From a virus: a stretch of DNA of 45,006 bases. Both the position numbers and the translations under genes were made by a program. This document shows positions 1 through 45,006 of this stretch, piece after piece (the first letter of the stretch is position 1; each line of letters begins with the position of its first letter). The notes beneath the pieces are model-generated. The model worked only from the letters and a program-made list of their open reading frames with translations. It was not told the DNA's origin and ran no database searches. The stretch is taken from the UHGV virus genome UHGV-0282798. One strand, 5' to 3'.

Positions 1-919
1 CATTAGTGTGGCCCGAGCGACCAGAGGCGTCAGGGTAAACCGTAACCGTATGGCCCGGATACCGTATCCTGACATTATTGACGAAGTCGTCGGTATTATG
101 GCTGACAAACTCATCAACAACCGTCGGGTTGCCGTCTTCAATAACGCTCACGGTGGCGCAACAGCCGCCGATGTTAAAGTCCAACCCTATGTGCAGAGCG
201 TCTCCATTCTGCAAGGTGCGGGTGGAGTCATGTGTGCTTCGTTTGAAATAGTGATACACCTTATTGGCCGTCAAACTGACAAATTCACCGTTGATATACA
301 TATCGGCCAAAGCCGCGTCGTAGTTCCTTCGTATCTGCTCGACGTAGCCTTCAGGTAAATATGGGTTCGACAATGTAGATGCCTTAATCAGTTCCGTAGA
401 ACTGTCGGCGTTAGTAACCCAATAGTCATACACAAATCCGGAGAATCCCTGGTCAGGTGTAGTCACGGCGGCAATACTGTTCCCGCCCCTACACGGTTGT
501 CGGGTACGCTCTGAAATCTTACGCCACACCAGAGACGCCTGTTCTTTAGTAAGCACGTCAAGTTCGTCTGCGACAGAATGCGCCACCTCAAAAGCGATTA
601 GACGGTTCGGGTTGTCGTATGACCTGAAAAACATAGTACCGTAACCTTTAACATGGATACTGTATTCTGATTTGTTGAGGTCATACTTAAGCCCCATCAT
701 ATTCAGGTCATCAACCACACCGGGAATGGCACGCAGCTTCAACAGGTCATACGTGGGCATGGTGTACAGGGTGTTTATCCCTCGCTCTCGCAACATGAGA
801 TACAGGAGACGCATCGTGGCCGCGCGGGACTTGCCTGCCCCCAGTCCAGCGACAATAGCTGGATGTGTCTTTGTACTGAATACAAAGTCCTGTTGGGGTT
901 CTGTTAATGGGATATCCAT
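1..919 (-). CDS. terL: Terminase large subunit, N-terminal ~306 codons (continues in frame at 44690-45006)
   Basis: Own minus-strand translation from ATG 917-919: MDIPLTEPQQDFVFSTKTHPAIVAGLGAGKS (Walker A) ... AFEVAHSVADELD (Walker B-like). Open to position 1, so absent from ORF track. ATG overlaps terS stop. Confidence 0.8.
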   Translation of the reverse strand, partial: MDIPLTEPQQDFVFSTKTHPAIVAGLGAGKSRAATMRLLYLMLRERGINTLYTMPTYDLLKLRAIPGVVDDLNMMGLKYDLNKSEYSIHVKGYGTMFFRSYDNPNRLIAFEVAHSVADELDVLTKEQASLVWRKISERTRQPCRGGNSIAAVTTPDQGFSGFVYDYWVTNADSSTELIKASTLSNPYLPEGYVEQIRRNYDAALADMYINGEFVSLTANKVYHYFKRSTHDSTRTLQNGDALHIGLDFNIGGCCATVSVIEDGNPTVVDEFVSHNTDDFVNNVRIRYPGHTVTVYPDASGRSGHTN

Positions 920-1470
920 TACTCGCCCCCCGGTTTAACAGCCTTAACGAAACGAATCTCGATAGGTTCAGAACCCTCGCCAGTCGATTCTTCTTTCTTA
1001 TTCAGCCCCAGCTTCGCAGCGGCAAACGTAGCAGAGATGCCAGCAGCCCCTGTCTCAGTGAAATACGCCTCTTCCAGCGCCTGTGCTGTTTCATAGGCTT
1101 CTGCAAACGCGGGTATCTCACGCAGCCACAGCTTGATAATCGGGATAGTGACGCCGATGTGTAGGGCAAAGCGGGCCAGTGACGGGGGTTTATCCTGAAT
1201 AAGCGGGCGTTCGTCACCCTTAGACGTAGGTACGAGTTCCCACGACGTGCGGTCGAAGAACTCGATTAACTCGTCGCAATAGTCCGGGTCCCACAACGCG
1301 GCGGAATTACGGGATGATTGATAAAGGCTCTGTTTACCGCGCGGTCGTTTACGGCGACGGTTTGCGCTAACAGCTTCTTCATGTGCAGCTTGCACCACCT
1401 CTGGCGATGGCTGCTTAAGTTTCAGCTTCATAGAATCCCCTTGCATATGCGTCTGACCATCAGAGCGCAC
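919..1470 (-). CDS. terS: Terminase small subunit (putative)
   Basis: 183-aa ORF immediately upstream of and overlapping terL; basic N-terminus, region DPDYCDELIEFF...AKLGLNKK resembles small-terminase DNA-binding proteins. Start may be internal (MKLKLKQ). Confidence 0.5.
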   Translation of the reverse strand: MRSDGQTHMQGDSMKLKLKQPSPEVVQAAHEEAVSANRRRKRPRGKQSLYQSSRNSAALWDPDYCDELIEFFDRTSWELVPTSKGDERPLIQDKPPSLARFALHIGVTIPIIKLWLREIPAFAEAYETAQALEEAYFTETGAAGISATFAAAKLGLNKKEESTGEGSEPIEIRFVKAVKPGGE

Positions 1471-1650
1471 CAGACGCGCCCTGCGCGTCTAAAGGGATTA
1501 TATAAGGGGATTGGGCGGGATGTACAGAAAAGCCCTCCGTAGAGGACTTGTATCAGTTATATAGGCCGTGTCGTGGTGCTCTTTTACCATCGCCGCCGTA
1601 ATGGTCGTTAGCTACGGCGATAGCCCATGCGTTAGGCATGATTAACAGTT

Positions 1651-1830
1651 TCATTTTAAGAATCTCAGCGCGGCGTCCGCGATACCGGACACCACTAGCC
1701 CGAAAAACATAGGCCACCAGATATATCTTGGCAGATTGGTAAATGTTTCGGGCTTAGTCCAGAAAGCCATTAAAAACGCGAGCCAAAACACCATATAACT
1801 AATGTTGCTAAGTAATTCTAAAATATTCAT
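1651..1830 (-). CDS. Small membrane protein (59 aa)
   Basis: Own translation MNILELLSNISYMVFWLAFLMAFWTKPETFTNLPRYIWWPMFFGLVVSGIADAALRFLK; two hydrophobic segments; ATGA overlap with upstream gene; below ORF-track size cutoff. Confidence 0.3.
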   Translation of the reverse strand: MNILELLSNISYMVFWLAFLMAFWTKPETFTNLPRYIWWPMFFGLVVSGIADAALRFLK

Positions 1831-2063
1831 TCCCCGCTCTCCCCTTTAGCAATGCGTTGCTCAGTTTTAGTGATACCCCGGCGCGTGAATAACACCGGGC
1901 TGGTCTTAACGTGCGTCATCAGACGGTTGTTATAAATTACGTGGCGCTCGCAATCAACGTCTTTGCTGTACTTCGCAATCGTCATTTCGTTTATGCCAGT
2001 TTGCCGGCATGTCTCGGCCATCGTGCCGAATTCTTTAATCAGGTTCGGAATGCTGGTAATCAA
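1827..2063 (-). CDS. Small helix-turn-helix-like protein
   Basis: ORF track; segment MAETCRQTGINEMTIAKYSK looks like an HTH; start may be the internal Met. Confidence 0.4.
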   Translation of the reverse strand: MITSIPNLIKEFGTMAETCRQTGINEMTIAKYSKDVDCERHVIYNNRLMTHVKTSPVLFTRRGITKTEQRIAKGESGE

Positions 2064-3902: not shown

Positions 3903-4439
3903 TCATTTAACGGCTCTCCCAATAGCCTCAGCCTCTTGCCACGGTTTACCGTCGAACAGCGCCAGACGCCCGGCTGCACGGCGACGCAGGCCGAGTAATG
4001 GTTTGCCGTTCTGGTTGATGAACAGCGCCAGCTTGGCACGCAGTGTTGCAATATCACCTGAGCGCAGCGCCTTACCCGTGCCAGTAGTAGCCGCAATCAC
4101 ACCAGCACCCGCGTTGTAGACCAGGTCACACACAGCGTCGAACTGCGCCTGTGTCAGTGAATGGTGCGCCACCGAATCCACCGCAGCTACGGCCTTAGCC
4201 ATATCGCGATTAAGTAACAGGAGGCCTTGTCCCGGTGTGATGGTCTTGCCTGGAGTCACGTCCGGCCCGTAGTGGCCGTAGCCAATAGTAAGGTACTTCT
4301 CATTCGGCGTAGCACGATACGCAGTTCCGCGGAATCCCTCGAACGCAGCACAGAAATGCAATCCATTATCTGAAATATTTCGAGACACGCTTATGTCCTC
4401 CGTATGACAGCCACGCCTGACGAATCTGGCGCAGCGCAA
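3903..4439 (-). CDS. Endolysin, phage lysozyme (GH24) family
   Basis: EGFRGTAYRATPNEKYLTIGYGH and LTQAQFDAVCDLVYNAGAG match T4-lysozyme-type motifs. Likely true start is GTG at 4386-4388 preceded by GGAGG (ACGGAGGACATAAGC GTG), giving about 162 aa. Confidence 0.8.
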   Translation of the reverse strand: MRCARFVRRGCHTEDISVSRNISDNGLHFCAAFEGFRGTAYRATPNEKYLTIGYGHYGPDVTPGKTITPGQGLLLLNRDMAKAVAAVDSVAHHSLTQAQFDAVCDLVYNAGAGVIAATTGTGKALRSGDIATLRAKLALFINQNGKPLLGLRRRAAGRLALFDGKPWQEAEAIGRAVK

Positions 4440-4638
4440 CTAATGTGATTAATGTCTCAGGCAGCGTAGGTGACATGCTGCCCTGTAACAGGTGGATGCA
4501 TCCGGCGGCGCAGACGATAGCAGTCAGGATATAGAGCACCCGGCCAAATAATCCGTCGTCCACGCTGGGGTGATACACATTAAACAGCGATGCGCCCCCG
4601 ATGGCCAGCATACCGCCGAACCAGAATAACTCATTCAT
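4366..4638 (-). CDS. Holin or antiholin-like membrane protein (2 TM)
   Basis: Hydrophobic segments FWFGGMLAIGGASLF and LYILTAIVCAAGCIHLL; immediately upstream of endolysin. Confidence 0.5.
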   Translation of the reverse strand: MNELFWFGGMLAIGGASLFNVYHPSVDDGLFGRVLYILTAIVCAAGCIHLLQGSMSPTLPETLITLVALRQIRQAWLSYGGHKRVSKYFR

Positions 4639-4939
4639 CCGGGCCTCCTCGACGTGAGATGTATTCCCCGGCGACGATACCGGAGAGGCGGGAATAGATG
4701 GGCATCCAGAGAATGGCGATGATGAATCCGAGGCCAGCTATCTCTCGCTCCCCAGTAATGCCAAACCATTGCGCGGCAAGAGGTGCACCAAACACGGCAC
4801 AGGTGAAGCCGGTTGCAATAAAGCAGAAGCCGTCAATGGGGCCAGAAATAACGGACTTATGTTGTCGTAGTCCGATTACCCCTCCGGCTAGCGCGGCAGC
4901 GAGAAGCCAGCCCGTCACTGTTTCAGTAAATTTATCCAA
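4631..4939 (-). CDS. Holin-like membrane protein (3 predicted TM)
   Basis: Three hydrophobic segments with a charged C-terminal tail RRGGPDE; position in lysis cassette. Confidence 0.55.
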   Translation of the reverse strand: MDKFTETVTGWLLAAALAGGVIGLRQHKSVISGPIDGFCFIATGFTCAVFGAPLAAQWFGITGEREIAGLGFIIAILWMPIYSRLSGIVAGEYISRRGGPDE

Positions 4940-9000: not shown

Positions 9001-9006
9001 AGGTGG

Positions 9007-9774: not shown

Positions 9775-12042
9775 ATGTCCGATGTAATTTTATCCTACTC
9801 GTGGTCCCGTCGCAACGCGCGGGCAGAGAAAAAGGATATAAACGTCAGAACTACACACACGGCAACACTGGACGACCTGAAAGAGTTAATCCAGCCGCTC
9901 GATGCTGTTCGTGACGGAATTAACCCTAAGACAGCACCTGGCTATATTACTGCCGCGTGCGACTCAACGCACAGCACCGTAAAAGACCCGGAAACCGGTG
10001 ACTTTAAGCAAGCGCGTAAGGGTTTTTTCTATCGTTGCGACGCATCTGTAAGCAAATCGTCACTGGCGTATCTGGACTTCGACAGCGCAACACCGGAAGA
10101 GTATCAGGAAGCGGTGCGCCTGGTTAAGCGCAGCCGCCAGGCTATGTGCCTCTACACCACGGCATCGCATACCGATGAGTCTCCTCGCTTTCGCGTCGTC
10201 ATGCCGCTGGGACGCCCGGTCGAAGGTGGCGACATCATCCGCGTTCGTCATGGATTGCTCGGGCACTTCTTCAAAGGCATGGGTGCTGACCGCAGCGGGT
10301 TCACTCTGTCACAGCCGATGTACCTGCCGCCGGTTGGCGCTACCGTTATCTGGTCACGCCGCAATGACCTGATTGACCCGGACGAGTTACTGGAGGGTAT
10401 CCCCGCCGTTGACGTCAGCAGCGCATCGGATTACCAGATTCCGGAAGAACTGCGCACCGCGTTTACTGATGCGTTCGAGGTACTGGCGTTTGAGTACGGC
10501 GGCATCATGACGCCACGCGGCCTTAAGATGCCAGCTACACCGGAACACGCAGAAAACTACAGCGATCCAACACCGCGCCTGGACGACTTCCTATTGTGCT
10601 TTCCGCGCGAAGGGTACGAAGCGCCTAACGTAACCATGATTCACGACACCGACATTACCGCAACCGAAGGCATGTCGCCGAAGGAGGTGTGGAAGTATGC
10701 GTGTGATGCGACCGGGTTGCCGTTCAGTGAAGTCGCTGAGGCAATCGGCTGGGGTGCGCGTGAATCAGTTTCATGCAGCCTGGACGACCTGGAAGACGAT
10801 GAGGACTCAGAGGAGGACGAGTTACCAGAACCGGTAAAGGCTGATTTCGTCGTTGAAGGGTACATGCCGTCAGATTGTATCTGGGATATTGTCGGGGAAT
10901 CTGGCACGTACAAATCATTCTATACGCTGGGTATGATGTATCTCAGCGCCGCTGGTTACCGGTTTGCGGGGGCGGATACCCAGCGTTGTCACCATTTCTA
11001 TATCGATGGTGAGGGTGGTGCAGCCACACGTACACGTATCGATGCCCTCGCGGCTAAATATGGCGAGGAAGGTAAAGATTACGTACATGTCATCGATATG
11101 GGCGAAGTCGGCAAACTGAAAAGCCTGATTAAGTTAATGCGCGAAACCGCTGGCGATGAGCCAATAGGCATGGTTGCATTCGACACCCTTAACCAGACGC
11201 TGGCCCTGACAATCGATAAGTTCGACGAGAACAGTTCATCGACGGCAATCGGCATGGGTAAAGTTATCGCCATCCTGAAAGAAGTACGCGACGCAACTAA
11301 AGCCGCAGTAGGCGTTGTTCACCATACGCCGAAAGGCGGGAAGAAAGCACGTGGTAGCGGGGCACTGTATGCGGGTGTTGACGTGGAACTGACAATTGAG
11401 CGTGCAACCGACCGTCAGATAAACGTATATCACTCGAAATTTAAGCACGGGCCTCAACAGAAGACTGTTGGCATGGTTCTGGAGTCCGTACAGTTCCGTG
11501 AAGCCCCGCCGCCGAAACAGTACCGCGCGGTTGAGTTCCTGGGTAGCACAGAGGAATACGGCACAATCGTTAACCTCGACCTGCCGGAGCCGCACAAGGC
11601 GCTTGTGTTGATGCCGTGGGGCTTTGAACCGTTCAAGACCGACGAGGAGAAAGAGCGGGAAGAAGGGCTGACAAAGGAAGGTAAAGAAAACGTACGTAAA
11701 ACCGTAGAGAACGCCGTCAACAGCTCAGAAGCCACAATACTGGCAGCGTTTGAACTGGCGGAAGGAACCTACAACGGAAACGAAGGTATCACAGTAGCCG
11801 CAGCGAATAAGCTGGCACAGTCCGACCCCAACGCAAAGGCGTTTAACTCCAAAGAAGCCATAGAACGCGGGAAGATTAAGAAAATGGTTGAGGCCGGGTA
11901 TCTTGTACCGGGGACTGACGAAAACAATCAGATAATACCGGGCCGTTACAGACTTAACACCAGGATAACAGATAACAAGATTCCGAAGACAATATACGAA
12001 CCGAATGAAATGCTGACAGTGACCGAGGAGGATTTGGAATAG
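9775..12042 (+). CDS. Primase-polymerase (AEP) fused to RepA/DnaB-like helicase
   Basis: N-terminal AEP-like motifs (LDFDS, TTASHT); C-terminal P-loop GESGTYKS and Walker-B-like VAFDTLNQ; acidic linker DDLEDDEDSEEDE; C-terminus TVTEEDLE. Confidence 0.7.
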   Translation: MSDVILSYSWSRRNARAEKKDINVRTTHTATLDDLKELIQPLDAVRDGINPKTAPGYITAACDSTHSTVKDPETGDFKQARKGFFYRCDASVSKSSLAYLDFDSATPEEYQEAVRLVKRSRQAMCLYTTASHTDESPRFRVVMPLGRPVEGGDIIRVRHGLLGHFFKGMGADRSGFTLSQPMYLPPVGATVIWSRRNDLIDPDELLEGIPAVDVSSASDYQIPEELRTAFTDAFEVLAFEYGGIMTPRGLKMPATPEHAENYSDPTPRLDDFLLCFPREGYEAPNVTMIHDTDITATEGMSPKEVWKYACDATGLPFSEVAEAIGWGARESVSCSLDDLEDDEDSEEDELPEPVKADFVVEGYMPSDCIWDIVGESGTYKSFYTLGMMYLSAAGYRFAGADTQRCHHFYIDGEGGAATRTRIDALAAKYGEEGKDYVHVIDMGEVGKLKSLIKLMRETAGDEPIGMVAFDTLNQTLALTIDKFDENSSSTAIGMGKVIAILKEVRDATKAAVGVVHHTPKGGKKARGSGALYAGVDVELTIERATDRQINVYHSKFKHGPQQKTVGMVLESVQFREAPPPKQYRAVEFLGSTEEYGTIVNLDLPEPHKALVLMPWGFEPFKTDEEKEREEGLTKEGKENVRKTVENAVNSSEATILAAFELAEGTYNGNEGITVAAANKLAQSDPNAKAFNSKEAIERGKIKKMVEAGYLVPGTDENNQIIPGRYRLNTRITDNKIPKTIYEPNEMLTVTEEDLE

Positions 12043-15853: not shown

Positions 15854-16009
15854 ATGTTTTTCTGTAAGCACGTTTATCGCTATATGAAACCACTTCCGTG
15901 GTATGCAGATGAGTACCGGGCCGGGTACAGACATGTGTGGATTTGCCGTGATTGTATGAAAATAAGATTAAGCGAAACGAAGGCACTGGATTTAAGGAAA
16001 AAGAAATGA
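15854..16009 (+). CDS. Small Cys/His-containing ORF (51 aa)
   Basis: Own translation MFFCKHVYRYMKPLPWYADEYRAGYRHVWICRDCMKIRLSETKALDLRKKK; stop overlaps the polymerase ATG (ATGA). Confidence 0.3.
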   Translation: MFFCKHVYRYMKPLPWYADEYRAGYRHVWICRDCMKIRLSETKALDLRKKK

Positions 16010-19114: not shown

Positions 19115-19794
19115 TTGTCTGGTCATTGTTTGACGGTTCGGGCCTTATGGCCCAACCGTGGGCAGAAGCAGGCCATACTTGCTATTGTTTCAACTACGAC
19201 GGTGCCGACCACGGCGACTACGCACGATTGGGCGCAAAAGTTGAACACGAGAACATCCACTATATAAACGCGTGGATTGATAATAAGTTCGACTTCGAGG
19301 TTGCGCCAGATATTATTTTTTCGTTCCCTCCGTGCACAGATTTAGCCGTTAGTGGCGCTGCGCATTTCGAAACCAAGCGGAAGAAGAACCCAACGTTTCA
19401 GGTAGGGGCCGTTATCACATGTAAAGTGGCTGCGCGTCTGGCTAAAAAGTACAACGTACCCTATATGATTGAGAACCCGGTTAGCGTTCTTTCGTCTTTA
19501 TGGCGTAAACCCGATTACGTGTTCAATCCTTACGACTACGGAGGTTATCTACCGGAAAACGACACACATCCAATGTTCCCAGAGTACATAAAACCGAGGG
19601 ACGCGTACCCTAAAAAGACATGTCTTTGGGTGGGTAATGGTTTCGTAATGCCGGTTAAGTCGGGTGTTGCCGTGGGTGATGGGTATTCTGACCAGCACAA
19701 CAAACTTGGCGGTAAATCAGTGCGGACAAAAACAATCCGCAGCCTCACCCCGCGGGGTTTTGCAAAAGCAGTTTACGAGGCTAATCATGTCTAA
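19111..19794 (+). CDS. Compact C5-cytosine-methyltransferase-like protein (~227 aa)
   Basis: Motif I SLFDGSG; motif IV DIIFSFPPCT (PC, but T replaces the usual Q); motif VI MIENP (ENV-like); RSLTPRGFAKAV resembles motif IX; no room for a normal target-recognition domain. Confidence 0.5.
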   Translation: MIVWSLFDGSGLMAQPWAEAGHTCYCFNYDGADHGDYARLGAKVEHENIHYINAWIDNKFDFEVAPDIIFSFPPCTDLAVSGAAHFETKRKKNPTFQVGAVITCKVAARLAKKYNVPYMIENPVSVLSSLWRKPDYVFNPYDYGGYLPENDTHPMFPEYIKPRDAYPKKTCLWVGNGFVMPVKSGVAVGDGYSDQHNKLGGKSVRTKTIRSLTPRGFAKAVYEANHV

Positions 19795-21538: not shown

Positions 21539-21568
21539 AGGCCCCAAACGGGGCCTTAGTTTTAGATA
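21539..21568. terminator. Bidirectional terminator hairpin between convergent blocks
   Basis: Stem AGGCCCC (21539-21545) / GGGGCCT (21550-21556), loop aaac, then TAGTTTTA; near-identical to the hairpin at 34422-34441. Confidence 0.6.
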
Positions 21569-28932: not shown

Positions 28933-31257
28933 TTAATACCCCGGCTGACCGCGAGTAGAGCGGCGAGCTTTAGAAATCGGTGAGTTGTTATCCTGTAACT
29001 GCGACGCTACTGTTTCACTGATTATAATACGTAAACGCCCTTCGTCATCACGTTCTGTTACAGCAGAATCTACGCGCCCCGTAGTGTTATTAACTATAGT
29101 GACGTTATCACCGCCGGACTGGCCACCGTTTTGCCCCATAATCTCTTTCATCTGCTGCGCAGTTCGTACGCGCGATGCGCCAGCAGGCATGATAACTTCC
29201 GGTTTGCCGCGTTCTGCGATGGTAGACATCTGCCCCGCTGATAACTGACCGCCCTGCTCACGTGCCGAGCGGATTTTGGCGATATTAGCCAGCCCCGCGG
29301 CAACGGCAGTACCTGCGGCAACCGGTGCCAGGAATGGGCCGACAACCGGTATCGCTGCGGTAGACTTATATGCTTCGATAGCCGAGGTGTATGTTGCGAT
29401 AGTGGCCTGGGCAATAGCAAACGCTTTATACGCGGTGGACGCCTCGCCAAATGCCGTTTTAGCATTAGCTGCCATGTCACCGAAAGAACTACCTAAAGCC
29501 TCGGCGCGCTTCGTAGCATACTGCTCATTGATAGCGTTAAGCGCCGCCTGATACTGTTCCTCGTTAATAAGCCCCTGTTCTCGATACTTATCAGCGACAG
29601 CCAGTTTCTGCTGTTCCTGGATGTCGAGGAGCTCAAGCTCAGCGGCGTTCTGCCCCATAATCTGGGCCATGAAGTCATCGCCTTTCTGCTGCTTTTCCTG
29701 CTGCTCTTTTCTTTTCTTATCCAGTTCTTCCTGTCTGGCCTGCTCGGCTGTGAGCATAATTTGAGTTTTGGCGTTTTCGTATTGCTGCTGGCTTATCGTT
29801 CCTGCGCGGTTGAACTCTTCAAGTTTTGCCAGTTTCTGCTCTTCGGCCGCCGTGATGCGAGAAATTTCATCTCCGGTTGTACGGTCAACCGTAGCAAGGA
29901 AATCTTCCGCGGCTTTCTTCTGGCGTTGTGCCGCCGTTTCTTCACGTTTGGCCTGCGCCGCCAGACGTTTCTCGTTCGATTTAGCCTCGCGGTCTGCCTT
30001 CTCTTTCTCGGTCTTGTCAATGCGGGCGATGTCTTGCTGTGCTTCCGTGTCACGAGCAGCATTATACGCGGCGATCTGTTCTTTGGTTACAGCTTCACGT
30101 TTAGCAAACGCCTGCTTATCCAGTTCAGCTTGCGCCCGGATGCGCTCACGGTCGCTTAAGATGGCGATTTGCTGATTCTTGACGATAGCTTCGTTCTGCT
30201 CCTGGAACCTCTGCGTGGTTGAGTTAACGTTACGACCGAGATTCTTTTGGGCTTCCGCCGCTGCGTTTGCGGACTTCTCCGCGTTCTCCAGTGCTGTGGC
30301 GTTCTTGTTGGCGTTGTCTGTCAGGCGGATAAGTTCCGGATTCAACTGTTTTGTGTTACCGAGCCAGTCGGTAAACACATCGGCGATGCGGCGGGCATTC
30401 TCGGCGGTTGGCTCTTTGTTAAACGCGCTCTGCGCCGCTATCATCTCCAGCGCCTGGTCACGGTTAACCCCGAACTTACTGCTAAGCTCCGCTATATTCT
30501 GCGCCAGCATGTTGACGCCTACGATGTTACCCTCGTAAGTGCCGCCAAGTTTTTCTAACGTGTCGCCTACATCCGCACCCTTAGAGACCAATGCATCGTA
30601 CTGGCTAATAGCGGATGCCGTGGAGGCTTTCCATGTCTCCCATGACTCGGCGTCCTCGCGGACAGCTTTAGCTGTTTGCTGCGCGATAAGGTCTGCGTTA
30701 GCCTTAGCCAGAGCAAGCTGAGTCTCCGCCGCTTCTCTGCTGATTTGGGTAAGCTGGATAAGGCCGTCTGTCAGTTCGAGGGAGCCAGATGCCGTTTGCT
30801 GGAAGGTGTCTTTTAACTGTTTCTGCGCGGCTTCCAGGTCTTTTGAACTGCCTTCTGCTTCGGTTAGCGATTTGTACAGGACACCGCCGATTGCCGAAGC
30901 AAGAGCAATCACAGCCCCGAGCACCGCGCCACCAGGTCCGAAAGCACCAGCAAGCTGCGAACCTTGTTGCCCGATTGCTACGAATGCAGACGTGCCGGAT
31001 TGCAACTGGACTACCATGTCCTGCACCTGGAAGCCAACCTGCCCTGCAGCGTTACGGAACTTAGCGAAACCGTCGGAGGCCGCTTTAGACGTAGCGGAGT
31101 TTACTTTATTAACGTCCGGCGTTAGTTTGTTTACGGATGTGTCCGCCCGGTCTGCGGATGCCGCCATAGCGTCAAGCTGTTTAGCGGCCGCATCAGCGCC
31201 TTCTGTTTTTACTCTGGCAATTAGGGAAGCCGTATCAGCCATCTTCTCTGCCCTCAA
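28933..31257 (-). CDS. Tail tape measure protein
   Basis: 774 aa, Ala/Gln/Glu/Lys-rich coiled-coil composition; between chaperones and distal tail genes. Track start is TTG; ATG at 31240-31242 with GAGGG RBS. Confidence 0.8.
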   Translation of the reverse strand: MRAEKMADTASLIARVKTEGADAAAKQLDAMAASADRADTSVNKLTPDVNKVNSATSKAASDGFAKFRNAAGQVGFQVQDMVVQLQSGTSAFVAIGQQGSQLAGAFGPGGAVLGAVIALASAIGGVLYKSLTEAEGSSKDLEAAQKQLKDTFQQTASGSLELTDGLIQLTQISREAAETQLALAKANADLIAQQTAKAVREDAESWETWKASTASAISQYDALVSKGADVGDTLEKLGGTYEGNIVGVNMLAQNIAELSSKFGVNRDQALEMIAAQSAFNKEPTAENARRIADVFTDWLGNTKQLNPELIRLTDNANKNATALENAEKSANAAAEAQKNLGRNVNSTTQRFQEQNEAIVKNQQIAILSDRERIRAQAELDKQAFAKREAVTKEQIAAYNAARDTEAQQDIARIDKTEKEKADREAKSNEKRLAAQAKREETAAQRQKKAAEDFLATVDRTTGDEISRITAAEEQKLAKLEEFNRAGTISQQQYENAKTQIMLTAEQARQEELDKKRKEQQEKQQKGDDFMAQIMGQNAAELELLDIQEQQKLAVADKYREQGLINEEQYQAALNAINEQYATKRAEALGSSFGDMAANAKTAFGEASTAYKAFAIAQATIATYTSAIEAYKSTAAIPVVGPFLAPVAAGTAVAAGLANIAKIRSAREQGGQLSAGQMSTIAERGKPEVIMPAGASRVRTAQQMKEIMGQNGGQSGGDNVTIVNNTTGRVDSAVTERDDEGRLRIIISETVASQLQDNNSPISKARRSTRGQPGY

Positions 31258-34421: not shown

Positions 34422-34448
34422 AAGGCCCCGAAAGGGGCCTTAGTTTTA
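34422..34448. terminator. Terminator hairpin closing the plus-strand island
   Basis: Stem AAGGCCCC (34422-34429) / GGGGCCTT (34434-34441), loop gaaa, then AGTTTTA; sits between the island and the convergent major tail gene. Confidence 0.6.
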
Positions 34449-35618
34449 TGCGTAGGTGATACGCTGGATAACAATAGACGACTGGTACTGATTGCCGGTA
34501 GCCTGGCCTTCGATGGACTGAGTGATTGACTCTGGTCCGCCAATCTCTGGCGTAACCGCCGTAAGTTCTGCGCGTTTCAGGCTGAAAGACATAGCCCCGT
34601 TTACCCCCGCCAGAATAGAGTTAATCTCTACCTGCTGTTCGTTGATAAACTTCTGAATCATCGCCATGTCGTACAGCTTACCGGAGATAGAGAAGGTGTT
34701 AGCCGCGCGACCACGTTCCACGAACGCAACGCTACTGTTGCCGAGTTCGAACTGCGCAGAAGCACCGTTGTCGTTTGTGATGGTCAGAGTATCGCAACGC
34801 AACGGCGTAGAACCGTCGAACACGGACACATCTACGGATGAGAACGGCTCATCGGTAAACGTCACCTGAGAGAAATCAGAACCTGCTGGCGGTGCAGAAA
34901 GAATCTCCTGACTTAGACCGATGAACGGGAAGCTGCCTGTCACCATCGCGTTTACGGCCTGTTCAATGGTGAATCCGGAGATTTCCACGCCTTTGGTCAA
35001 CATGTACGCGTCCGGGTTCCCGCACTGTCCTTTGAACCATGTCAGGATGGAGAACGTCTTACATGCGTTACTGGTTTCCAGTTTGTCGCCGGTTTTAGCG
35101 TCGGTGGTTACAGTCTCTGCTGTCAGCGTGTGCTGAATGCCCGCACCCGTAACTACAAGAGCAGAAACCGCGGTCACGATAAACGGTTTTGCGTTGTCGC
35201 CGGTTAAGTCGGTGAACGCAATCAGGTCGCCAACTTCTACACCGTCAGTAATGAAGCTACCGGCAGCGCGGGTGAATGTTTTACCTGCTGGGGCGACCGT
35301 AATTTCAGCACCCGTAATCTCCACCCCATCCTGCCACGTAGAAGTCATCGCGCCCGCGAGGAAATCATCCTGGCTACGCGAGCTAAGTTCGATGGCGTAC
35401 TCCCCGCTAACCTGCTTATTACCAGTGCGGATGGATGTAGTTTCACGGCTGCCGTCGAGTTCGTTGGAAGTCAGCGCATCGCGGGTTACGGCTGGAACGC
35501 CGCCCGTGTTACGCAACGGCGACCAGACCGGGTTAGTCGGTGTTACGCCCGGGGTATTTTCCACCACATAGAATTGCGCGGTATTCGCGCCCTTAAAAGG
35601 AGTTGTAGCCATATTCAC
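34446..35618 (-). CDS. Major tail protein (putative)
   Basis: 390 aa, Thr/Ser/Gly/Ala-rich; follows tail-completion genes. Positional call. Confidence 0.55.
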   Translation of the reverse strand: MNMATTPFKGANTAQFYVVENTPGVTPTNPVWSPLRNTGGVPAVTRDALTSNELDGSRETTSIRTGNKQVSGEYAIELSSRSQDDFLAGAMTSTWQDGVEITGAEITVAPAGKTFTRAAGSFITDGVEVGDLIAFTDLTGDNAKPFIVTAVSALVVTGAGIQHTLTAETVTTDAKTGDKLETSNACKTFSILTWFKGQCGNPDAYMLTKGVEISGFTIEQAVNAMVTGSFPFIGLSQEILSAPPAGSDFSQVTFTDEPFSSVDVSVFDGSTPLRCDTLTITNDNGASAQFELGNSSVAFVERGRAANTFSISGKLYDMAMIQKFINEQQVEINSILAGVNGAMSFSLKRAELTAVTPEIGGPESITQSIEGQATGNQYQSSIVIQRITYA

Positions 35619-38947: not shown

Positions 38948-39997
38948 TTAAGCACCGACACCAGTTACCAGGAAGGCAATCGGTACATGCTTACGCTCAA
39001 CAACGCGGTTCCAGTTGGAGGCGTTCGCCAGGTCCTGCCAGGAAGCAGAGCGTGCGACAGTCTCGGTGCCGTTGCCGGTGATTACCGCGCTGGTGAAGCT
39101 GTAGCCCAGTGGGTGCAGCAACCAGGTCTTACGGGTCCACAGGGTTTCAACGCCGCCGCCGTTACCGCGAGACGCTTCACGCTCGTATTCCAGCGGGTTT
39201 GACGGATTACCTTCACCGTAACCGATAGCGCCGTTACCGAAGATGGTGGAGATGAACTTACGGCTAGGACCAGTACCGACTACGGTCATGCTGTCGTCAA
39301 CAATCACGCGGTAGCCCTGGTAGGTGGCGAACATGGTGTTGTTGTCAGCGTCTTTGATGAAGTCAATAAGCTGCTGCTTACGGGCCTGCGCATAAACGAA
39401 ACTGTGCATCGCGATAGCACCCAGTACTTCACCACCGTTACCCATCAGAGCATCGCCCATGGTCTGGGTAGCGTCGATGAATGCGCCCGCGTCGAAGCCC
39501 AGAGTCGCGGACACGTCTACTACCATGTCGTTCTGCTCGTGGTAAGCATCGGTCGCGGCAACGTTGTCGTTGTACAGGCCGAGCGCAGTGGCAATCAGAC
39601 GGCGTTGTGCCTGACGCTGCCAGAAGTTATCCAGACGGGACGCTACAGATTGCAGCGGGTTCTGGCTGGTCAGTTCGACAGTCAGGTCAGCCTGGCCAAA
39701 ACCTTCGTTCAGGTACGCAACGCGCGCCATCATCTCACCGGTCTGCACGTTACGCGGGGTTGCGATGTCCTGGTATACGTCGTTCGAGTAGTTTGGCTCG
39801 ATAGAGGTATCAATCGCTTTCCAGAAAGGAATATTAGCGACGTTGGACGGGCCACGAGCAATCTCGGCAGCGTACGGGGTCGGGGTAAGGATACCGGACT
39901 GGAAGAACGCGGTTTTTTCTACCGGGTCTTCTGTCATGTAAGACGCCAGGACCGGGATGTTGCCAGTTACGATATCGCCGATAGTGGTAATTGCCAT
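38948..39997 (-). CDS. Major capsid protein (putative)
   Basis: 349 aa directly downstream of scaffold; strong RBS GAGGAAATAATA before the ATG; positional call. Confidence 0.6.
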   Translation of the reverse strand: MAITTIGDIVTGNIPVLASYMTEDPVEKTAFFQSGILTPTPYAAEIARGPSNVANIPFWKAIDTSIEPNYSNDVYQDIATPRNVQTGEMMARVAYLNEGFGQADLTVELTSQNPLQSVASRLDNFWQRQAQRRLIATALGLYNDNVAATDAYHEQNDMVVDVSATLGFDAGAFIDATQTMGDALMGNGGEVLGAIAMHSFVYAQARKQQLIDFIKDADNNTMFATYQGYRVIVDDSMTVVGTGPSRKFISTIFGNGAIGYGEGNPSNPLEYEREASRGNGGGVETLWTRKTWLLHPLGYSFTSAVITGNGTETVARSASWQDLANASNWNRVVERKHVPIAFLVTGVGA

Positions 39998-39999: not shown

Positions 40000-40755
40000 T
40001 TATTTCCTCAGGGCTTTAAGTTGCCGTTCAAATTCGGCAGGGTTCGATTTATACAGAGCTAAACGCTCCGCTTCACTCATGTCTTTAAACGCTGGTGCGG
40101 CCCCGCCGCCTTTGCTACCGGAAGCCCCGCCGCCGGAAGCTGCATTTGCTTTAATCAAATGCGAAAACGCTTTGTGTTCACGCAGGTATTTGCGGAACTG
40201 TTCCGGGTCAGTCGTGATTACGTTGCCGTCTGCTCCGACAAACTTAGTAACCACGTCATCGCCTTCAAACTCGGTCTTAACGAACGGAGCCAGGATGTCC
40301 ACTGCTTCCGGGGTGATAAAGTCACCCGCGAAAGAGCCTAACACCGCTTTACGTTCGCTGCCGAGGATACGCTCCGCCATTCTGGAGATGCGGCCGTCTT
40401 TCTCGGCTAACACCGGGTCATACTGGCTACGAATCGTCTTTTCAAACTCGTCCATCTTACCAGCGGCTTTTAACGCCTCCTGGTGTGCGCGCTGCCGTTC
40501 TTCTTCGGCCTCTTTTGCTTTGCGAGCGGCTTCTTTCTTCTCCGCCAGCAATGCTTCCTGATTAGCCTTAAGCCCGGCTACTTCTTTCTCAATCAGCGCC
40601 TGAACTTCTTCAGCGGTGAACATTTTCGGCGCATCACCGCCGCCAGATTTATCTTCTGTCCCAGCTTCTTCCTGGAACGGATAACGTAAAAAACGATTCA
40701 TAGTCAGTATGTCCCCTGGACGTTGGAATCCGGGCCACCCGGATTTACATGTCAA
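40000..40755 (-). CDS. Capsid scaffolding protein (putative)
   Basis: Charged helical protein (EEVQALIEKEVAGLKANQEALLAEKKEAARKAKEAEEERQRAHQEALKAAGK) immediately upstream of the capsid gene; likely start ATG 40699-40701 (track start is TTG). Confidence 0.55.
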   Translation of the reverse strand: MTCKSGWPGFQRPGDILTMNRFLRYPFQEEAGTEDKSGGGDAPKMFTAEEVQALIEKEVAGLKANQEALLAEKKEAARKAKEAEEERQRAHQEALKAAGKMDEFEKTIRSQYDPVLAEKDGRISRMAERILGSERKAVLGSFAGDFITPEAVDILAPFVKTEFEGDDVVTKFVGADGNVITTDPEQFRKYLREHKAFSHLIKANAASGGGASGSKGGGAAPAFKDMSEAERLALYKSNPAEFERQLKALRK

Positions 40756-41532: not shown

Positions 41533-41590
41533 CTATTCGAATAGTTTATTCCAACATTTACAATTGATTGGAATAACTGGAATAATTACG

Positions 41591-41617
41591 AGCCATAAAA
41601 AGCCCCTTTCGGGGCTT
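41591..41617 (-). terminator. Intrinsic terminator (mainly minus strand)
   Basis: Stem AAGCCCC (41600-41606) / GGGGCTT (41611-41617), loop tttc; on the minus strand it is followed by UUUUAUGG. Confidence 0.55.
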
Positions 41618-41621
41618 CAGT

Positions 41622-42083
41622 TTATTCTGGCTTAGTCACCTTCGCCGCTTTGCTTACACCCTCTACACCATCGGCATCGGTAACTTTAACGAAGTATTCA
41701 CCGACCACATTAACCGTCAGAGACAGAGCTTCTTCTGGGGCGTTGACTACTTCCTTACCGTCTTTGTACCAGGTCAGCACATACGGCGCTTTGCCCGCCT
41801 TAACTTCGACAGTGATAGTTGCGCTGCCGTCTGCCAGTTCCGCATCCTGCGGTTGCACAGAGAAATACACGTCGCCAGCGTCCGCCAGATACGGAATCTC
41901 ATAAAGCATACCCGCCGCGGGCAGCGCGATGCCTGTTTTATCCGCAAACGGCATATCGTCTACCGGTGTACCGAGTACACTTTCGTCTTCAATAAACACC
42001 ACGTTCTCACCAGAGCCGGATACACGGGCGTACTGGACTACGCGGCGCGCGGGTACATCGGTTACTTTGAAAAAGCCCATCAT
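41622..42083 (-). CDS. Ig-like domain protein
   Basis: GKAPYVLTWYKDGKEV ... GEYFVKVTD looks like an I-set/Big-type domain; position after the Mu-F-like gene. Confidence 0.45.
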   Translation of the reverse strand: MMGFFKVTDVPARRVVQYARVSGSGENVVFIEDESVLGTPVDDMPFADKTGIALPAAGMLYEIPYLADAGDVYFSVQPQDAELADGSATITVEVKAGKAPYVLTWYKDGKEVVNAPEEALSLTVNVVGEYFVKVTDADGVEGVSKAAKVTKPE

Positions 42084-43159: not shown

Positions 43160-43195
43160 ACTATAAGAAAGCCCCTTTCGGGGCTATATGCGAAC

Positions 43196-44677
43196 TTACT
43201 GCTGGGCGGTGTCTTGTTGCTGCGCCGACTGCGGAATCTCCCCCGCTACCGGAGTAGCAGCACCCAACGGCAGCGGCGCATCCTCAATAGCGTTCTGAAT
43301 GTCCTCGTCGGTCCAGTCGGTTACCCCCGCCTTACGCAACGCAGCATAATAAGCGGTAGCTGGTAGTAGGCCTGCGTTAATATCCACCATCCACTGTGCA
43401 CGGTCCTGAGCGGTCATCGGCTGCAGGAAGAACTCCATATTCAGCTTGAACTCAATCTCTGTGCCTTCACGCAGCCCTAGCATCGCGGCTACCCAGCGCA
43501 ACGCATCGGTATACGCCATGCTTACATTACGCGCGATTGTCGCCATAACAGACGTATCAGCGCCACGTTGCAGGCGGGCCGATTCTGCAGTGATTTGCTG
43601 CGTCGGGGTAATAAGCTGCGCACCAATCTGAATGGCCTGATTCTCTTTATCCAGCATGTTCTGCTTGGCGAGATTGTTCTCTCCGGCCTGAACCAGAAAC
43701 GCATTACCGCCGTAGCCAATGTTGTGGCCTGAACGCGACCCCATGCGCACGCCGTGAGGGTTGGCTTCGGTCCACTGTTCCATGCTCATATTCTCACCAG
43801 GGGCGATGAACAGAGTGGGCTGGCCCACGACGAAGCTGGATTCCTCATTATCGGCGCTGTTGCGGAAATGCCCGATATTAAGCTCAGCTAACGGTAGCAA
43901 AGGTGCGTCGTCAATGGTGGCATCGTTGTTGCTCGCCCCGATGAACGTGAACGGGATTTTGCCGCGTAACTGTCCGCCAAGTTCCGGGAAGATTTCTTTT
44001 ACTTCACCCTGAGCGCCACCTTCGGCATCGAAGCGGTAAATACGCTGGCGGTAGCGCCCGTCAATCAAATCGAGAACGCGGTATTGCTCACCGAACTTTG
44101 TTTCGAACTCCGCGCCCGGTTCCGAGTATTCCCACACCTCGCGCAACACGACCATCGTCACCCGGTTAACAGAACCGATGCGTGTCAGTCGCCAGTTGAT
44201 GATGTTCTCTGCGGTGTAGAATGCGATGACCGGGTTTAATAATCCCGCGTTCTGTTCGGCTGCCGTTGCCGCAGCAGTCTCCGGCGCGTCCACCAGCAAC
44301 CCACCACGGCCTACCGAGTCAATCTCCATTAGCGTATCCTGCGCGTGCTGCCACAGTCCGACACCGGAACCGTCGGCATTGCGTAACAGGTACTCAAGCT
44401 CAGGCGGGATAATCTGCTCAGGGTCTTTGCGCATCACTGACCCCACCATCCCAGCCAGGGTACGTTTAGTGAAGTTGTAGCAGATAGCGCCGTTCTCGTA
44501 TTCTTCCTGTCGCTGTGCCGCGTAGGTCGGGTCAGGCTCGTTCTTCCCGACGTTGCGCAGGTAGCGGATAAGGTCGCCCTCCAGCGCGTGGCGTACCTTC
44601 TGCCATTTATCGAAGTGGTGCAGCCATTCCCGGTGTTTTGTCTTAACACCCTGATTCTGACCGTTCATAGTTAACAT
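43196..44677 (-). CDS. Portal protein (putative)
   Basis: 493 aa directly downstream of terL and upstream of the Mu-F-like gene; positional call. Confidence 0.6.
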   Translation of the reverse strand: MLTMNGQNQGVKTKHREWLHHFDKWQKVRHALEGDLIRYLRNVGKNEPDPTYAAQRQEEYENGAICYNFTKRTLAGMVGSVMRKDPEQIIPPELEYLLRNADGSGVGLWQHAQDTLMEIDSVGRGGLLVDAPETAAATAAEQNAGLLNPVIAFYTAENIINWRLTRIGSVNRVTMVVLREVWEYSEPGAEFETKFGEQYRVLDLIDGRYRQRIYRFDAEGGAQGEVKEIFPELGGQLRGKIPFTFIGASNNDATIDDAPLLPLAELNIGHFRNSADNEESSFVVGQPTLFIAPGENMSMEQWTEANPHGVRMGSRSGHNIGYGGNAFLVQAGENNLAKQNMLDKENQAIQIGAQLITPTQQITAESARLQRGADTSVMATIARNVSMAYTDALRWVAAMLGLREGTEIEFKLNMEFFLQPMTAQDRAQWMVDINAGLLPATAYYAALRKAGVTDWTDEDIQNAIEDAPLPLGAATPVAGEIPQSAQQQDTAQQ

Positions 44678-44689
44678 TTAATAATCCTC

Positions 44690-45006
44690 TTAAAGTGCGA
44701 AACGAACTGGGGTATTGATAACAGGGCGGACAACAGGGAACAACCTATGCATACAATAGCCTAAACTGTCATTCCAGTCGTCGATAGCTGGGTGAGTTTT
44801 AAACTTCTCCGGTTCACCATTATCGTTATACCCCTGCGTCTCTAGTGACTGCGTTAATTTAGGGCATTTTGAAGTGTTAATCCTCAAACGGCTATGTGAC
44901 AAAAGCGCGTTAACCGCGTTTATTCTGTCTTTAACGAATGGGTTCTTACTTGGAGCGTTAACACGTAAGCCGGCCTTTTCGATGATACCTATGTCGGATA
45001 ATGATG
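44690..45006 (-). CDS. terL: Terminase large subunit, C-terminal ~105 codons (continuation of 1-919)
   Basis: Minus-strand frame is open from 45006 to the stop at 44690-44692 (...SLSDIGIIEKAGLRVNAPSKNPFVKDRINAVN...). Position 1 plus 45006-45005 form one codon (GCA), so the junction is in frame. Confidence 0.75.
   Translation of the reverse strand, partial: SLSDIGIIEKAGLRVNAPSKNPFVKDRINAVNALLSHSRLRINTSKCPKLTQSLETQGYNDNGEPEKFKTHPAIDDWNDSLGYCMHRLFPVVRPVINTPVRFAL

What the first reader, a model, noticed from the sequence alone, without database searches (positions are those of the whole stretch)
1..45006. Window is a whole, circularly permuted phage genome; terL is split across the window ends
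The minus-strand terL reading frame starting at ATG 917-919 runs to position 1 without a stop, and the frame entering from position 45006 is open down to the stop at 44690-44692. Joining the ends gives an intact codon (position 1 plus 45006-45005 = GCA) and one uninterrupted ~411-codon ORF. The window length is divisible by 3, so frame is preserved. Gene order is then continuous: terS, terL, portal, head genes. Every functional module expected of a tailed phage is present once, and no host genes, integrase or att-like junctions were seen.
Basis: seen in the sequence. Interest (0 to 1): 0.45.

Follow-up and report, generated by a model that had tools for sequence, protein, structure and literature searches.

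The report
Complete circular phage genome, cut in terL
The window is one complete 45,006-bp genome of a lytic E. coli-type siphovirus (Kagunavirus group) that assembled as a circle and was cut open inside its large-terminase gene, which is an ordinary bookkeeping artefact.

Summary
The minus-strand ATG is at 919-917, the frame is open to position 1, and it continues from 45006 to the TAA at 44692-44690. The junction codon is GCA and the joined ORF has 411 codons. That ORF is a genuine large terminase (TerL), 99.5% identical over its full length to TerL of Escherichia phage AV104.

The interpretation also holds. Two MEGAHIT metagenome contigs of 45,147 bp (45,006 + 141, matching the k141 in their names) are 100% identical to the window wherever they were read (about 47% and 52% of the circle). 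One runs 21.5 kb straight across the window junction. The other has an exact 141-nt terminal overlap and is cut elsewhere in terL. The first is cut in a helicase gene. So one circle has three different arbitrary break points.

The genome is collinear around the whole circle with Kagunavirus phage 26. It carries each module of a tailed phage, with no integrase and no host DNA.

Whether the virion DNA is truly circularly permuted (headful/pac packaging) is only inferred from relatives in the subfamily. No reads were available.

Side finding: terL and the last ~24 codons of terS form a swapped cassette. TerL is 42% identical to the usual Kagunavirus TerL, while the flanking genes are 88-96% identical at protein level.

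Interest is low.

The parts
1..919 (-). terL, 5' part (codons 1-306 and the first base of codon 307). It holds the ATPase domain with Walker A GLGAGKS (25-31), Walker B VADE (116-119) and the TTP motif (153-155), plus the first half of the nuclease domain (D247, D297).
44690..45006 (-). terL, 3' part (the last two bases of codon 307 through codon 411, then TAA at 44692-44690). It holds the rest of the nuclease domain, including DDWND at 382-386.
919..1431 (-). terS (small terminase, 170 aa as called in public assemblies; an upstream GTG at 1470 would give 183 aa). Its stop overlaps the terL ATG.
   Evidence: phrog_3064 terminase, 2.8e-72
43196..44677 (-). Portal protein (493 aa).
   Evidence: phrog_145, 6e-150; PF13264
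42083..43159 (-). Head morphogenesis protein (Mu F-like).
   Evidence: phrog_241, 4e-155; PF04233
41622..42083 (-). Hoc-like head decoration protein.
40000..40755 (-). Head scaffolding protein.
   Evidence: phrog_206
38948..39997 (-). Major head protein.
   Evidence: phrog_247, 1e-119
34446..35618 (-). Tail tube / minor tail protein.
   Evidence: (PF18906 Phage_tube_2)
28933..31257 (-). Tail length tape measure protein.
   Evidence: phrog_1538, 9e-196
23413..25980 (-). Central tail protein (J-like).
   Evidence: phrog_469, 1e-247
21562..23400 (-). Tailspike. The N-terminal anchor is conserved. The distal part resembles E. coli prophage tailspikes.
19664..21211 (+). SNF2-type DNA helicase. Contig k141_37393 is cut inside this gene; its record position 1 corresponds to window 20916.
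15952..18255 (+). Family A DNA polymerase.
9775..12042 (+). Replicative helicase-primase.
   Evidence: phrog_3228, 1e-286
3903..4939 (-). Lysis cassette: two holins (4631-4939 and 4366-4638) and an endolysin (3903-4439). The spanin is encoded separately at 40893-41279.
608..748 (.). The 141 nt that occur at both ends of contig k141_59889 (the k-mer overlap of a circular assembly path). This marks a second break point inside terL, different from the window's own.
1..994 (-). Left part of the exchanged packaging cassette: the last ~24 codons of terS and the terL 5' part. DNA identity to the typical Kagunavirus Bas75 falls from about 83-100% to about 20-60% at window ~994.
44700..45006 (-). Right part of the exchanged cassette. 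Identity to Bas75 recovers at about 44700, at the terL stop.

Best explanation
The window is one complete genome unit (45,006 bp, 50.4% G+C) of a virulent siphovirus of the Kagunavirus group (Guernseyvirinae). It was recovered as a closed circular path in a metagenome assembly, the assembler's 141-nt k-mer overlap was removed, and the circle was cut open at an arbitrary point that falls in codon 307 of terL. Joining the ends restores an intact large terminase with an N-terminal ATPase and a C-terminal RNase H-like nuclease, encoded between terS and portal.

Shown: the junction is continuous, the source assembly is circular, the break point is arbitrary, the ORF is TerL, the gene set is complete, and there is no integrase or host DNA.

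Inferred: the packaged virion DNA is linear, terminally redundant and circularly permuted. Terminase would start at a pac site on replication concatemers and cut again once the head is full. Such a population assembles as a circle with no fixed ends.
For: Junction. The joined protein is 99.5% identical over residues 1-411 to AV104 TerL. A 3,000-nt junction query aligns in one ungapped-length piece to phage 26 (92.2%) and hz69 (91.6%). Loci L003 and L009, from contig k141_37393 of sample ERZ27264761, are 100% identical with 0 gaps over 21,482 and 20,513 nt that cross the junction. L007, L012 and L006 also cross it, at 99.4-99.98%.

Circularity. Two contigs are 45,147 bp = 45,006 + 141. The ends of k141_59889 overlap by exactly 141 nt, at window 748-608. 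k141_37393 starts at window 20916, inside the helicase gene. That gives three break points for one sequence.

TerL identity. The motifs, and residues that are invariant across five homologues of 42-59% identity, include K30, D118/E119, D247, D297 and D382/D386. A profile of these homologues aligns over positions 26-395 to the solved phage D6E TerL, 5OE8.

Completeness. The window is collinear with phage 26 round the whole circle. Modules. No large repeats.

Not integrated. Only a tailspike segment matches any of 5,426 E. coli genomes.

Headful inference. Jerseyvirus K47 was shown to use headful/pac packaging by PhageTerm, a circular-like restriction pattern and a broad PFGE band (PMC10783031). 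Shashou and Sciku were predicted pac/headful (PMC6776780, PMC6753286). Kagunavirus fBC-Eco01 had no detectable termini (PMC9825357). K1G and K1H TerL cluster with headful phages (PMC5582158).
Against: No reads were available, so the physical ends of the virion DNA were not examined. A circular assembly is also produced by cos phages and by phages with direct terminal repeats.

This phage carries a minority TerL allele that is only about 40-42% identical to the TerLs of the relatives whose packaging was studied. I found no termini data for any phage with this allele.

The window's own break point matches neither of the two 45,147-bp contigs, so its exact source contig was not identified.

The 141-nt overlap of k141_37393 rests on length arithmetic. 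Its far end was not fetched.

The samples that gave the two contigs have neighbouring accession numbers and may come from one study.
Confidence: 0.88

Rival explanations
1. The genome is complete and assembles as a circle, but the virion DNA has fixed ends somewhere else in the sequence (cohesive ends, or short or long direct terminal repeats). The circle would then come from concatemer reads, annealed cos ends or a collapsed repeat, and the DNA would not be circularly permuted.
For: A circular assembly does not discriminate between packaging modes. The TerL here is a distinct allele, about 40-42% identical to the Guernseyvirinae TerLs with packaging data. Its nearest outside relative, Plesiomonas phage phiP4-7 at 73%, has no packaging data that I could find. 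The phage 26 record note mentions both 'circularly permutated' and 'cohesive ends'.
Against: Apart from phiP4-7 (73%) and Caulobacter phage DMCA (43.6%), the closest full-length relatives listed were Guernseyvirinae TerLs at about 39-41%, followed by Dhillonvirus at about 35%. One study places that TerL group next to the headful phage P1 (PMC10783031). Every termini analysis found for the subfamily gave either headful/pac or no fixed ends (PMC10783031, PMC6776780, PMC6753286, PMC9825357). The N-terminal 146 residues of terS, where DNA recognition usually resides (established knowledge of small terminases), are essentially identical to those of typical Kagunavirus. The window contains no long direct repeat that could be a collapsed terminal repeat.
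Confidence: 0.15
2. The window ends are real physical ends. On this reading the window is either a truncated or partial genome, or a prophage excised from a host contig, and terL is genuinely interrupted.
For: Only the raw fact that the record begins and ends inside a gene.
Against: Identical sequence runs uninterrupted across the junction in five other assemblies. The joined protein is 99.5% identical, full length, to a terminase from a cultured phage. Relatives show the same length across the junction. No host genes or integrase were found. The backbone is absent from E. coli chromosomes.
Confidence: 0.01
3. The circle is an assembly artefact, closed falsely through a repeat or formed as a chimera of two related phages.
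For: The genome holds a two-copy element of about 145 nt (8892-9036 and 41390-41533). Logan contigs L004 and L006 break at that element.
Against: The overlaps that close the circles lie in unique coding sequence (terL 608-748, and the helicase near 20776-20916), not in the repeat. Two separate sample assemblies gave contigs of the same 45,147-bp length that are 100% identical to the window over every stretch fetched (about 47% and 52% of the circle). Gene order is collinear with cultured phages all the way round.
Confidence: 0.01
4. It is maintained in cells as a circular episome (a phage-plasmid or carrier state), not only as a lytic phage.
For: One 44-kb 'plasmid' record from an E. coli blood isolate, CP088689, is a Kagunavirus-like genome.
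Against: No partition, plasmid-replication, repressor-switch or integrase genes were found among the proteins scanned or in the Pfam tables. The group is described as strictly lytic (PMC10783031, PMC13507304). A single such record is more simply explained as phage DNA carried over into a bacterial assembly.
Confidence: 0.03

Closest known systems
Escherichia phages AV104 (OR352935), 26 (NC_073320 / MZ832314) and hz69 (ON556632), genus Kagunavirus, subfamily Guernseyvirinae
   Same: They have the same gene order all round the genome and the same minority terS-tail/terL cassette, with TerL 99.0-99.5% identical. Backbone DNA is about 87-92% identical where it aligns. The phage 26 record is itself cut inside a gene (the DNA polymerase) and carries a note about circular permutation.
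   Different: Only about 66-88% of the window aligns by megablast to the best relative, which is well below the 95% species threshold. The window is longer (45.0 kb against 42.5-43.1 kb), at least in part because of three HNH endonuclease genes and other small inserts. Its tailspike distal domain is different.
Typical Kagunavirus such as K1G (NC_027993) and AnnaReinhart_Bas75 (PQ850596)
   Same: Collinear structural, lysis and replication modules. Portal is 96% identical at protein level, and TerS is essentially identical over residues 1-146.
   Different: TerL is only 41.8% identical and the last ~24 residues of TerS are unrelated. The DNA boundaries are sharp, at window ~994 and ~44700.
Jerseyvirus (for example Salmonella phage K47 or vB_SenS-Ent1), used as the packaging reference
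   Same: Same subfamily and the same terS-terL-portal layout. TerL is about 40% identical over its full length. Headful packaging with pac initiation was shown experimentally for K47 (PMC10783031).
   Different: Different genus and host, and a different TerL allele. Packaging was not tested for the present phage.
Circular contigs from de Bruijn graph assemblers (MEGAHIT k141), recognised by a terminal k-mer overlap
   Same: Contig length is 45,147 = 45,006 + 141, with an exact 141-nt end overlap verified in k141_59889.
   Different: The window itself carries no overlap. Its break point differs from both contigs found, so it is a third linearisation, or a rotated copy.

Membership tests
Large terminase subunit (TerL; Pfam Terminase_6N + Terminase_6C; PHROG 2) | N-terminal ASCE ATPase with Walker A, Walker B with a catalytic Glu, and a coupling (C) motif | tested here: met
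   Terminase_6N matches residues 22-226 at 29 bits, above the 22-bit cut-off. The motifs are GLGAGKS 25-31, VADE 116-119 and TTP 153-155. K30, D118 and E119 are invariant in five homologues of 42-59% identity.
Large terminase subunit (TerL; Pfam Terminase_6N + Terminase_6C; PHROG 2) | C-terminal RNase H/RuvC-like nuclease with conserved acidic residues | tested here: met
   Terminase_6C matches residues 267-393 at 22.3 bits, just under the 22.6 cut-off. phrog_10250 terL matches residues 198-403 at 1.9e-29. D247, D297, D382 and D386 are invariant. A profile aligns over positions 26-395 with the solved D6E TerL, 5OE8, at E=0.0027. The domain spans junction residue 307.
Large terminase subunit (TerL; Pfam Terminase_6N + Terminase_6C; PHROG 2) | Encoded next to the small terminase and portal genes | tested here: met
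   terS (919-1431), terL and portal (43196-44677) follow one another on the minus strand.
Large terminase subunit (TerL; Pfam Terminase_6N + Terminase_6C; PHROG 2) | ATP-driven DNA translocation and endonuclease activity | not testable with these tools
   This needs a biochemical assay.
Genus Kagunavirus (Guernseyvirinae) | Collinear genome with the shared hallmark genes of the genus | tested here: met
   blastn collinearity with phage 26 extends round the whole circle. There are 500+ Guernseyvirinae records among the hits, and the best hits are all Kagunavirus.
Genus Kagunavirus (Guernseyvirinae) | At least 70% intergenomic nucleotide similarity to members of the genus (ICTV genus criterion; established knowledge) | tested here: inconclusive
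   A rough estimate of coverage times identity against AV104 is about 67% by megablast, and against phage 26 about 62% by blastn (70% of the window aligned). These figures undercount divergent regions. No VIRIDIC-type calculation was run.
Headful (pac) packaging phage with circularly permuted, terminally redundant DNA | The genome assembles as a circle with no fixed ends | tested here: met
   An exact 141-nt overlap, and three break points for one identical sequence. This is necessary but not specific: cos and DTR phages also assemble as circles.
Headful (pac) packaging phage with circularly permuted, terminally redundant DNA | Random read starts, or a one-sided pac peak, a submolar pac fragment, and more than 100% of a genome per virion | not testable with these tools
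   No reads or virion DNA were available.
Headful (pac) packaging phage with circularly permuted, terminally redundant DNA | TerL groups with the TerLs of phages that have proven headful packaging | tested here: inconclusive
   About 40% identity over the full length to Jerseyvirus TerLs, whose headful mode has experimental support (PMC10783031). No phylogeny against the reference terminase set was built here.
Temperate phage / integrated prophage | Integrase or recombinase, att junctions, flanking host genes | tested here: not met
   No integrase appeared in the PHROG scans of the 31 proteins tested or in the Pfam tables of the public gene calls covering most of the circle. The backbone is absent from 5,426 complete E. 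coli genomes.

The most novel reading that the evidence does not exclude
The window ends happen to fall inside a packaging cassette of about 1.3 kb (the last ~24 codons of terS plus all of terL). In a minority of Kagunavirus records (8 in the phage collection), this cassette has been replaced as a unit by a distant homologue. Its TerL is 42% identical to the usual genus allele and 73% identical to that of Plesiomonas phage phiP4-7, while the flanking terS body and portal stay 88-96% identical at protein level.

The most novel reading not excluded is that the swap has a functional consequence. It might alter packaging behaviour (for example end type or headful cutting). It might also provide escape from a host defence or a satellite that targets the terminase. 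The co-transferred TerS tail would be the adaptor that keeps the new motor docked to the old DNA-recognition subunit.
Probability: 0.12. Interest if true: 0.45.

Novelty: new member of a known kind. Interest (0 to 1): 0.12.

Why it matters
The practical lesson is about annotation. The window should be treated as a circle. The two terL fragments are one gene. The record should be rotated, by convention to the start of terS, before gene calling or comparison. Otherwise terL will be reported as two partial genes or missed altogether.

The phage itself appears to be a new species-level member of a well-studied group of lytic, glycan-dependent E. coli siphoviruses that is of interest for phage therapy. 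It raises no open question.

The terS-tail/terL cassette exchange is a tidy natural example of modular replacement of a packaging motor together with its docking peptide. It could be used to map the TerS-TerL interface in this group.

Tried and rejected
(1) I searched for a terminal direct repeat or overlap between the window ends. There is none, so circularity could not be read from the window alone.

(2) Exact-match scans for the 34-nt junction in IMG/VR and in JGI metagenomes, and for a 37-nt string near the window start in IMG/VR, all returned nothing. The source contig with this exact break point was not identified.

I used portal, terS, tailspike and methyltransferase instead.

(4) A single-sequence search of the PDB gave only noise. 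A five-sequence profile was needed to reach a solved TerL.

(5) Greedy ORF picking mis-assigned some loci, for example the strand opposite the capsid genes. I dropped it in favour of profile hits and public gene calls.

(6) I considered a small RNA as the explanation for the two-copy 145-nt element. There is no Rfam hit. Fold energies are not different from shuffled sequence (z from -0.7 to -1.8). My by-eye minus-strand promoter, TTGACT-N17-TAAGCT, does not pass the scan criteria. The element is left unexplained.

(7) The literature search found no termini data for phages with this TerL allele (AV104, phage 26, hz69).

(8) The prophage, phage-plasmid, false-circle and real-ends readings were considered and rejected; see the rival explanations.

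Full report
**1. The observation**

Reading the minus strand, ATG lies at 919-917 and overlaps the stop codon of the upstream gene (TAA, 921-919) by one base. The frame is open to position 1. Entering from position 45006, the same frame stays open to TAA at 44692-44690. Concatenating 44690-45006 with 1-919 gives 1,236 nt with no internal stop: 411 codons plus the stop codon. The junction codon is GCA (Ala307), made of position 1 followed by 45006 and 45005.

The remark that the window length is divisible by 3 is true but has no bearing on whether the frame is continuous.

**2. The joined ORF is a large terminase**

- It matches phrog_2 'terminase large subunit' at 6.6e-33 over residues 5-400.
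- It matches Pfam Terminase_6N over residues 22-226, at 29 bits against a cut-off of 22.
- It matches Terminase_6C over residues 267-393, at 22.3 bits against a cut-off of 22.6. This nuclease-domain match is a single stretch that spans junction residue 307.
- The expected motifs are present: Walker A GLGAGKS (25-31), Walker B VADE (116-119), TTP (153-155), and acidic nuclease residues D247, D297 and D382/D386.
- These residues are invariant in an alignment with four homologues of 42-59% identity.
- A profile of that alignment aligns over positions 26-395 with the solved large terminase of phage D6E, 5OE8, at E=0.0027.
- The protein is 99.0-99.5% identical over residues 1-411, in one piece, to the annotated terminase of eight phage records, including AV104, phage 26 and hz69.

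The window ends therefore cut through the nuclease active site of a gene that is intact in cultured phages.

**3. What the window is**

The window matches more than 500 Guernseyvirinae records. The best matches are E. coli Kagunavirus phages at about 87-90% identity over about 66-88% of the length.

After rotation and reverse-complementing, the window is collinear with the complete genome of Escherichia phage 26 around the whole circle. The only wraps are at the reference's own ends, and a single 3,346-nt HSP crosses the window's ends.

Profile searches identify the following genes.

| Module | Genes found |
|---|---|
| Packaging | terS, portal |
| Head | Mu F-like head morphogenesis protein, Hoc-like decoration protein, scaffold, major head protein |
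| Tail | tail tube, tape measure, J-like tail protein, tailspike |
| Replication and DNA metabolism | SNF2 helicase, DNA methyltransferase, family A DNA polymerase, Gp2.5-like ssDNA-binding protein, two exonucleases, helicase-primase, resolvase-like endonuclease |
| Lysis | two holins, endolysin, spanin |
| Regulation | small HTH regulator |
| Mobile | three HNH endonucleases |

No integrase or recombinase appears in these scans, nor in the Pfam tables of public gene calls that cover most of the circle. There are no tRNAs and no long internal duplication. The backbone is absent from 5,426 complete E. coli genomes; only part of the tailspike matches prophage tailspikes.

**4. Is the junction real, and is the source circular?**

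Three lines of evidence agree.

(a) A 3,000-nt query built from the last 1,500 and first 1,500 bases aligns in one piece, 3,000 onto 3,000 bases, to phage 26 (92.2%) and hz69 (91.6%). No base is missing or duplicated at the join.

(b) Looking up the exact portal and terS proteins in public assemblies returned two MEGAHIT contigs of 45,147 bp: k141_37393 from ERZ27264761 and k141_59889 from ERZ27264767. 45,147 - 141 = 45,006, which is the window length. Loci from k141_37393 are 100% identical to the circularised window, with no mismatch or gap, over 21,482 and 20,513 nt that run from window 9671 (or 11431) down through position 1, on to 45006, and further. In that contig terL is an intact internal 411-codon gene.

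(c) In k141_59889 the last 141 nt of one end equal the first 141 nt of the other. This is the terminal overlap expected of a circular assembly path at k = 141. The overlap corresponds to window 748-608, so this contig is also cut inside terL, but 607 nt away from the window's cut. Contig k141_37393 starts at window 20916, inside the SNF2 helicase gene.

One identical 45,006-bp circle thus exists in three different linearisations, so the break point in the window carries no biological meaning. Three further contigs (L007, L012, L006) cross the junction at 99.4-99.98% identity.

Limits:
- The far end of k141_37393 was not fetched, so its overlap rests on length arithmetic.
- Neither contig was read in full. 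The fetched loci cover about 47% (k141_37393) and 52% (k141_59889) of the circle.
- The contig with the window's own break point was not found.
- The two samples have neighbouring accession numbers and may belong to one study.

**5. Circular permutation of virion DNA versus arbitrary cut**

The cut is arbitrary; that is shown. Whether the packaged DNA is itself circularly permuted and terminally redundant cannot be read from the sequence, because cos and DTR phages also assemble as circles.

The inference rests on relatives:
- Jerseyvirus K47 was assigned headful packaging with pac initiation by PhageTerm, a circular-like restriction profile and a broad PFGE band (PMC10783031).
- The Guernseyvirinae-like phages Shashou and Sciku were predicted pac/headful (PMC6776780, PMC6753286).
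- For Kagunavirus fBC-Eco01, PhageTerm found no termini (PMC9825357).
- K1G and K1H TerL cluster with headful terminases (PMC5582158).

The weakness is that this phage carries a different TerL allele (section 6), and I found no termini data for any phage with that allele. In favour of unchanged packaging, residues 1-146 of TerS, the part that in characterised small terminases recognises DNA (established knowledge), are essentially identical to those of typical Kagunavirus.

I put headful packaging at roughly 0.75-0.8 and fixed ends elsewhere in the genome at about 0.15.

**6. A side finding at the same place**

Most Kagunavirus records match the junction query over only 57% of its length, in two pieces. 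Portal and terS align at about 91%, but terL does not align at DNA level.

A windowed alignment against Bas75 shows identity falling from about 83-100% to about 20-60% at window ~994. It recovers at ~44700, at the terL stop.

At protein level:
- TerS is essentially identical up to residue ~146, and the last ~24 residues are unrelated.
- TerL is 41.8% identical.
- Portal is 96% identical.

In the phage collection this TerL allele is at least 99% identical in only 8 records. Plesiomonas phage phiP4-7 is next at 73%, and all other listed relatives are below 60%. Relatives of 50-59% identity sit on contigs binned into unrelated MAGs.

This is a cassette exchange of the motor subunit together with the C-terminal tail of TerS. 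In characterised terminases that tail is the TerL-binding segment (established knowledge for P22 gp3 and lambda Nu1; an inference here). Terminase mosaicism is well known among tailed phages, so I rate this a neat example and not a new principle.

**7. Comparison with what is known, and novelty**

The phage is a member of a known group. By coverage times identity it is far below the 95% species threshold relative to any record in the collection, so it is probably a new species. Placement at the 70% genus threshold was not computed properly.

The finding itself, a gene split by the ends of a linearised circular assembly, is routine. The RefSeq record of phage 26 is likewise cut inside its DNA polymerase gene and says so in a note.

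**8. Verdict**

Novelty: a new member of a known kind. Interest is low (0.12). The practical action is to rotate the record to start at terS and annotate terL as one gene.

Noticed in passing
window 44700-45006 plus 1-994 (minus strand): terL and the last ~24 codons of terS form an exchanged cassette. TerL is 41.8% identical to the usual Kagunavirus allele, while the TerS body is essentially identical and portal is 96% identical. The allele is at least 99% identical in only 8 phage records, and its nearest outside relative is Plesiomonas phage phiP4-7 at 73%.
   Followed up: partly
window 8892-9036 and 41390-41533: A two-copy intergenic element of about 145 nt, 87-89% identical between copies. 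Bas75 and phage 26 have only the head-module copy. On the plus strand both copies end in the hairpin AAGCTC-AGGTG-GAGCTT followed by a T-run. There is no Rfam hit and folding is not better than shuffled sequence. A small ORF is annotated over the element in Bas75. Its function is unexplained.
   Followed up: partly
L004 and L006 (Logan contigs SRR25011134_20119 and SRR25011153_2285): Both of these 12-13 kb contigs begin and end inside the 145-nt element, so the repeat is where less aggressive assemblies of this phage break.
   Followed up: no
window 8687, 12296, 12340, 15085, 18861 (plus strand): Five copies of a 30-nt promoter-like motif, TTGACAcgTGAATAGt..gCTATTATAGTT. The spacer contains the palindrome AATAG-N5-CTATT. 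The copies lie upstream of plus-strand replication genes and close to the small HTH regulator at 12060-12275, so this may be a shared operator (family D2).
   Followed up: no
window 12984-13610, 28273-28923, 33537-34007 (all plus strand): Three HNH endonuclease genes, two of which share a 51-nt near-repeat. They appear to be free-standing homing-type inserts, one between the tape measure gene and the next tail gene, and they help explain the extra length relative to phage 26.
   Followed up: partly
window 21564-22899 (tailspike, minus strand): The distal part of the tailspike gene matches tailspike genes of E. coli chromosomal prophages at 78-85%. The rest of the genome has no match in 5,426 E. 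coli genomes, which suggests a receptor-binding domain exchanged with prophages.
   Followed up: no
window 21534-21564, 34418-34448, 41595-41625: Three copies of the G+C-rich hairpin AAAAGGCCCCnnnnGGGGCCTT with A/T runs on both sides, lying between convergent gene blocks. They look like bidirectional intrinsic terminators.
   Followed up: no
window 21302-21367: A tandem duplication of 33 nt (two copies, 91% identical) at the 3' end of the small ORF 21208-21396, downstream of the helicase gene (family D5).
   Followed up: no
L001 (NC_073320, Escherichia phage 26), positions 1-2011 and 42272-42462: This RefSeq record is itself linearised inside its DNA polymerase gene. The misc_feature note mentions both 'circularly permutated genome' and 'cohesive ends', which contradict each other.
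   Followed up: no
PLSDB record CP088689 (44,086 bp, E. coli from human blood): A record deposited as a non-mobilizable plasmid is a Kagunavirus-like genome, 87.5% identical over 41% of the query. It is probably phage DNA carried into a bacterial assembly.
   Followed up: no
L013, L015, L016 (ENA scaffolds VATA22-2_SAMN26286761 scaffold_170, 44,965 bp, and SAMN26286735 scaffold_94, 46,383 bp): Essentially the same phage (99.98% over 5.8-7.8 kb) occurs in other metagenome assemblies, with scaffold lengths that differ from 45,006. The 46,383-bp scaffold is 1,377 bp longer, which could be an insert or a terminal overlap; this was not examined.
   Followed up: no
L008 (ENA ERZ27280705 k141_615186, 43,459 bp): Another Kagunavirus contig carries the identical TerS protein and a same-length (411-aa) terL, at about 90% DNA identity across terS-terL-portal. 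It also has a PAPS-reductase-like gene inserted between the head decoration gene and the spanin gene, at the locus where the 145-nt element sits.
   Followed up: no
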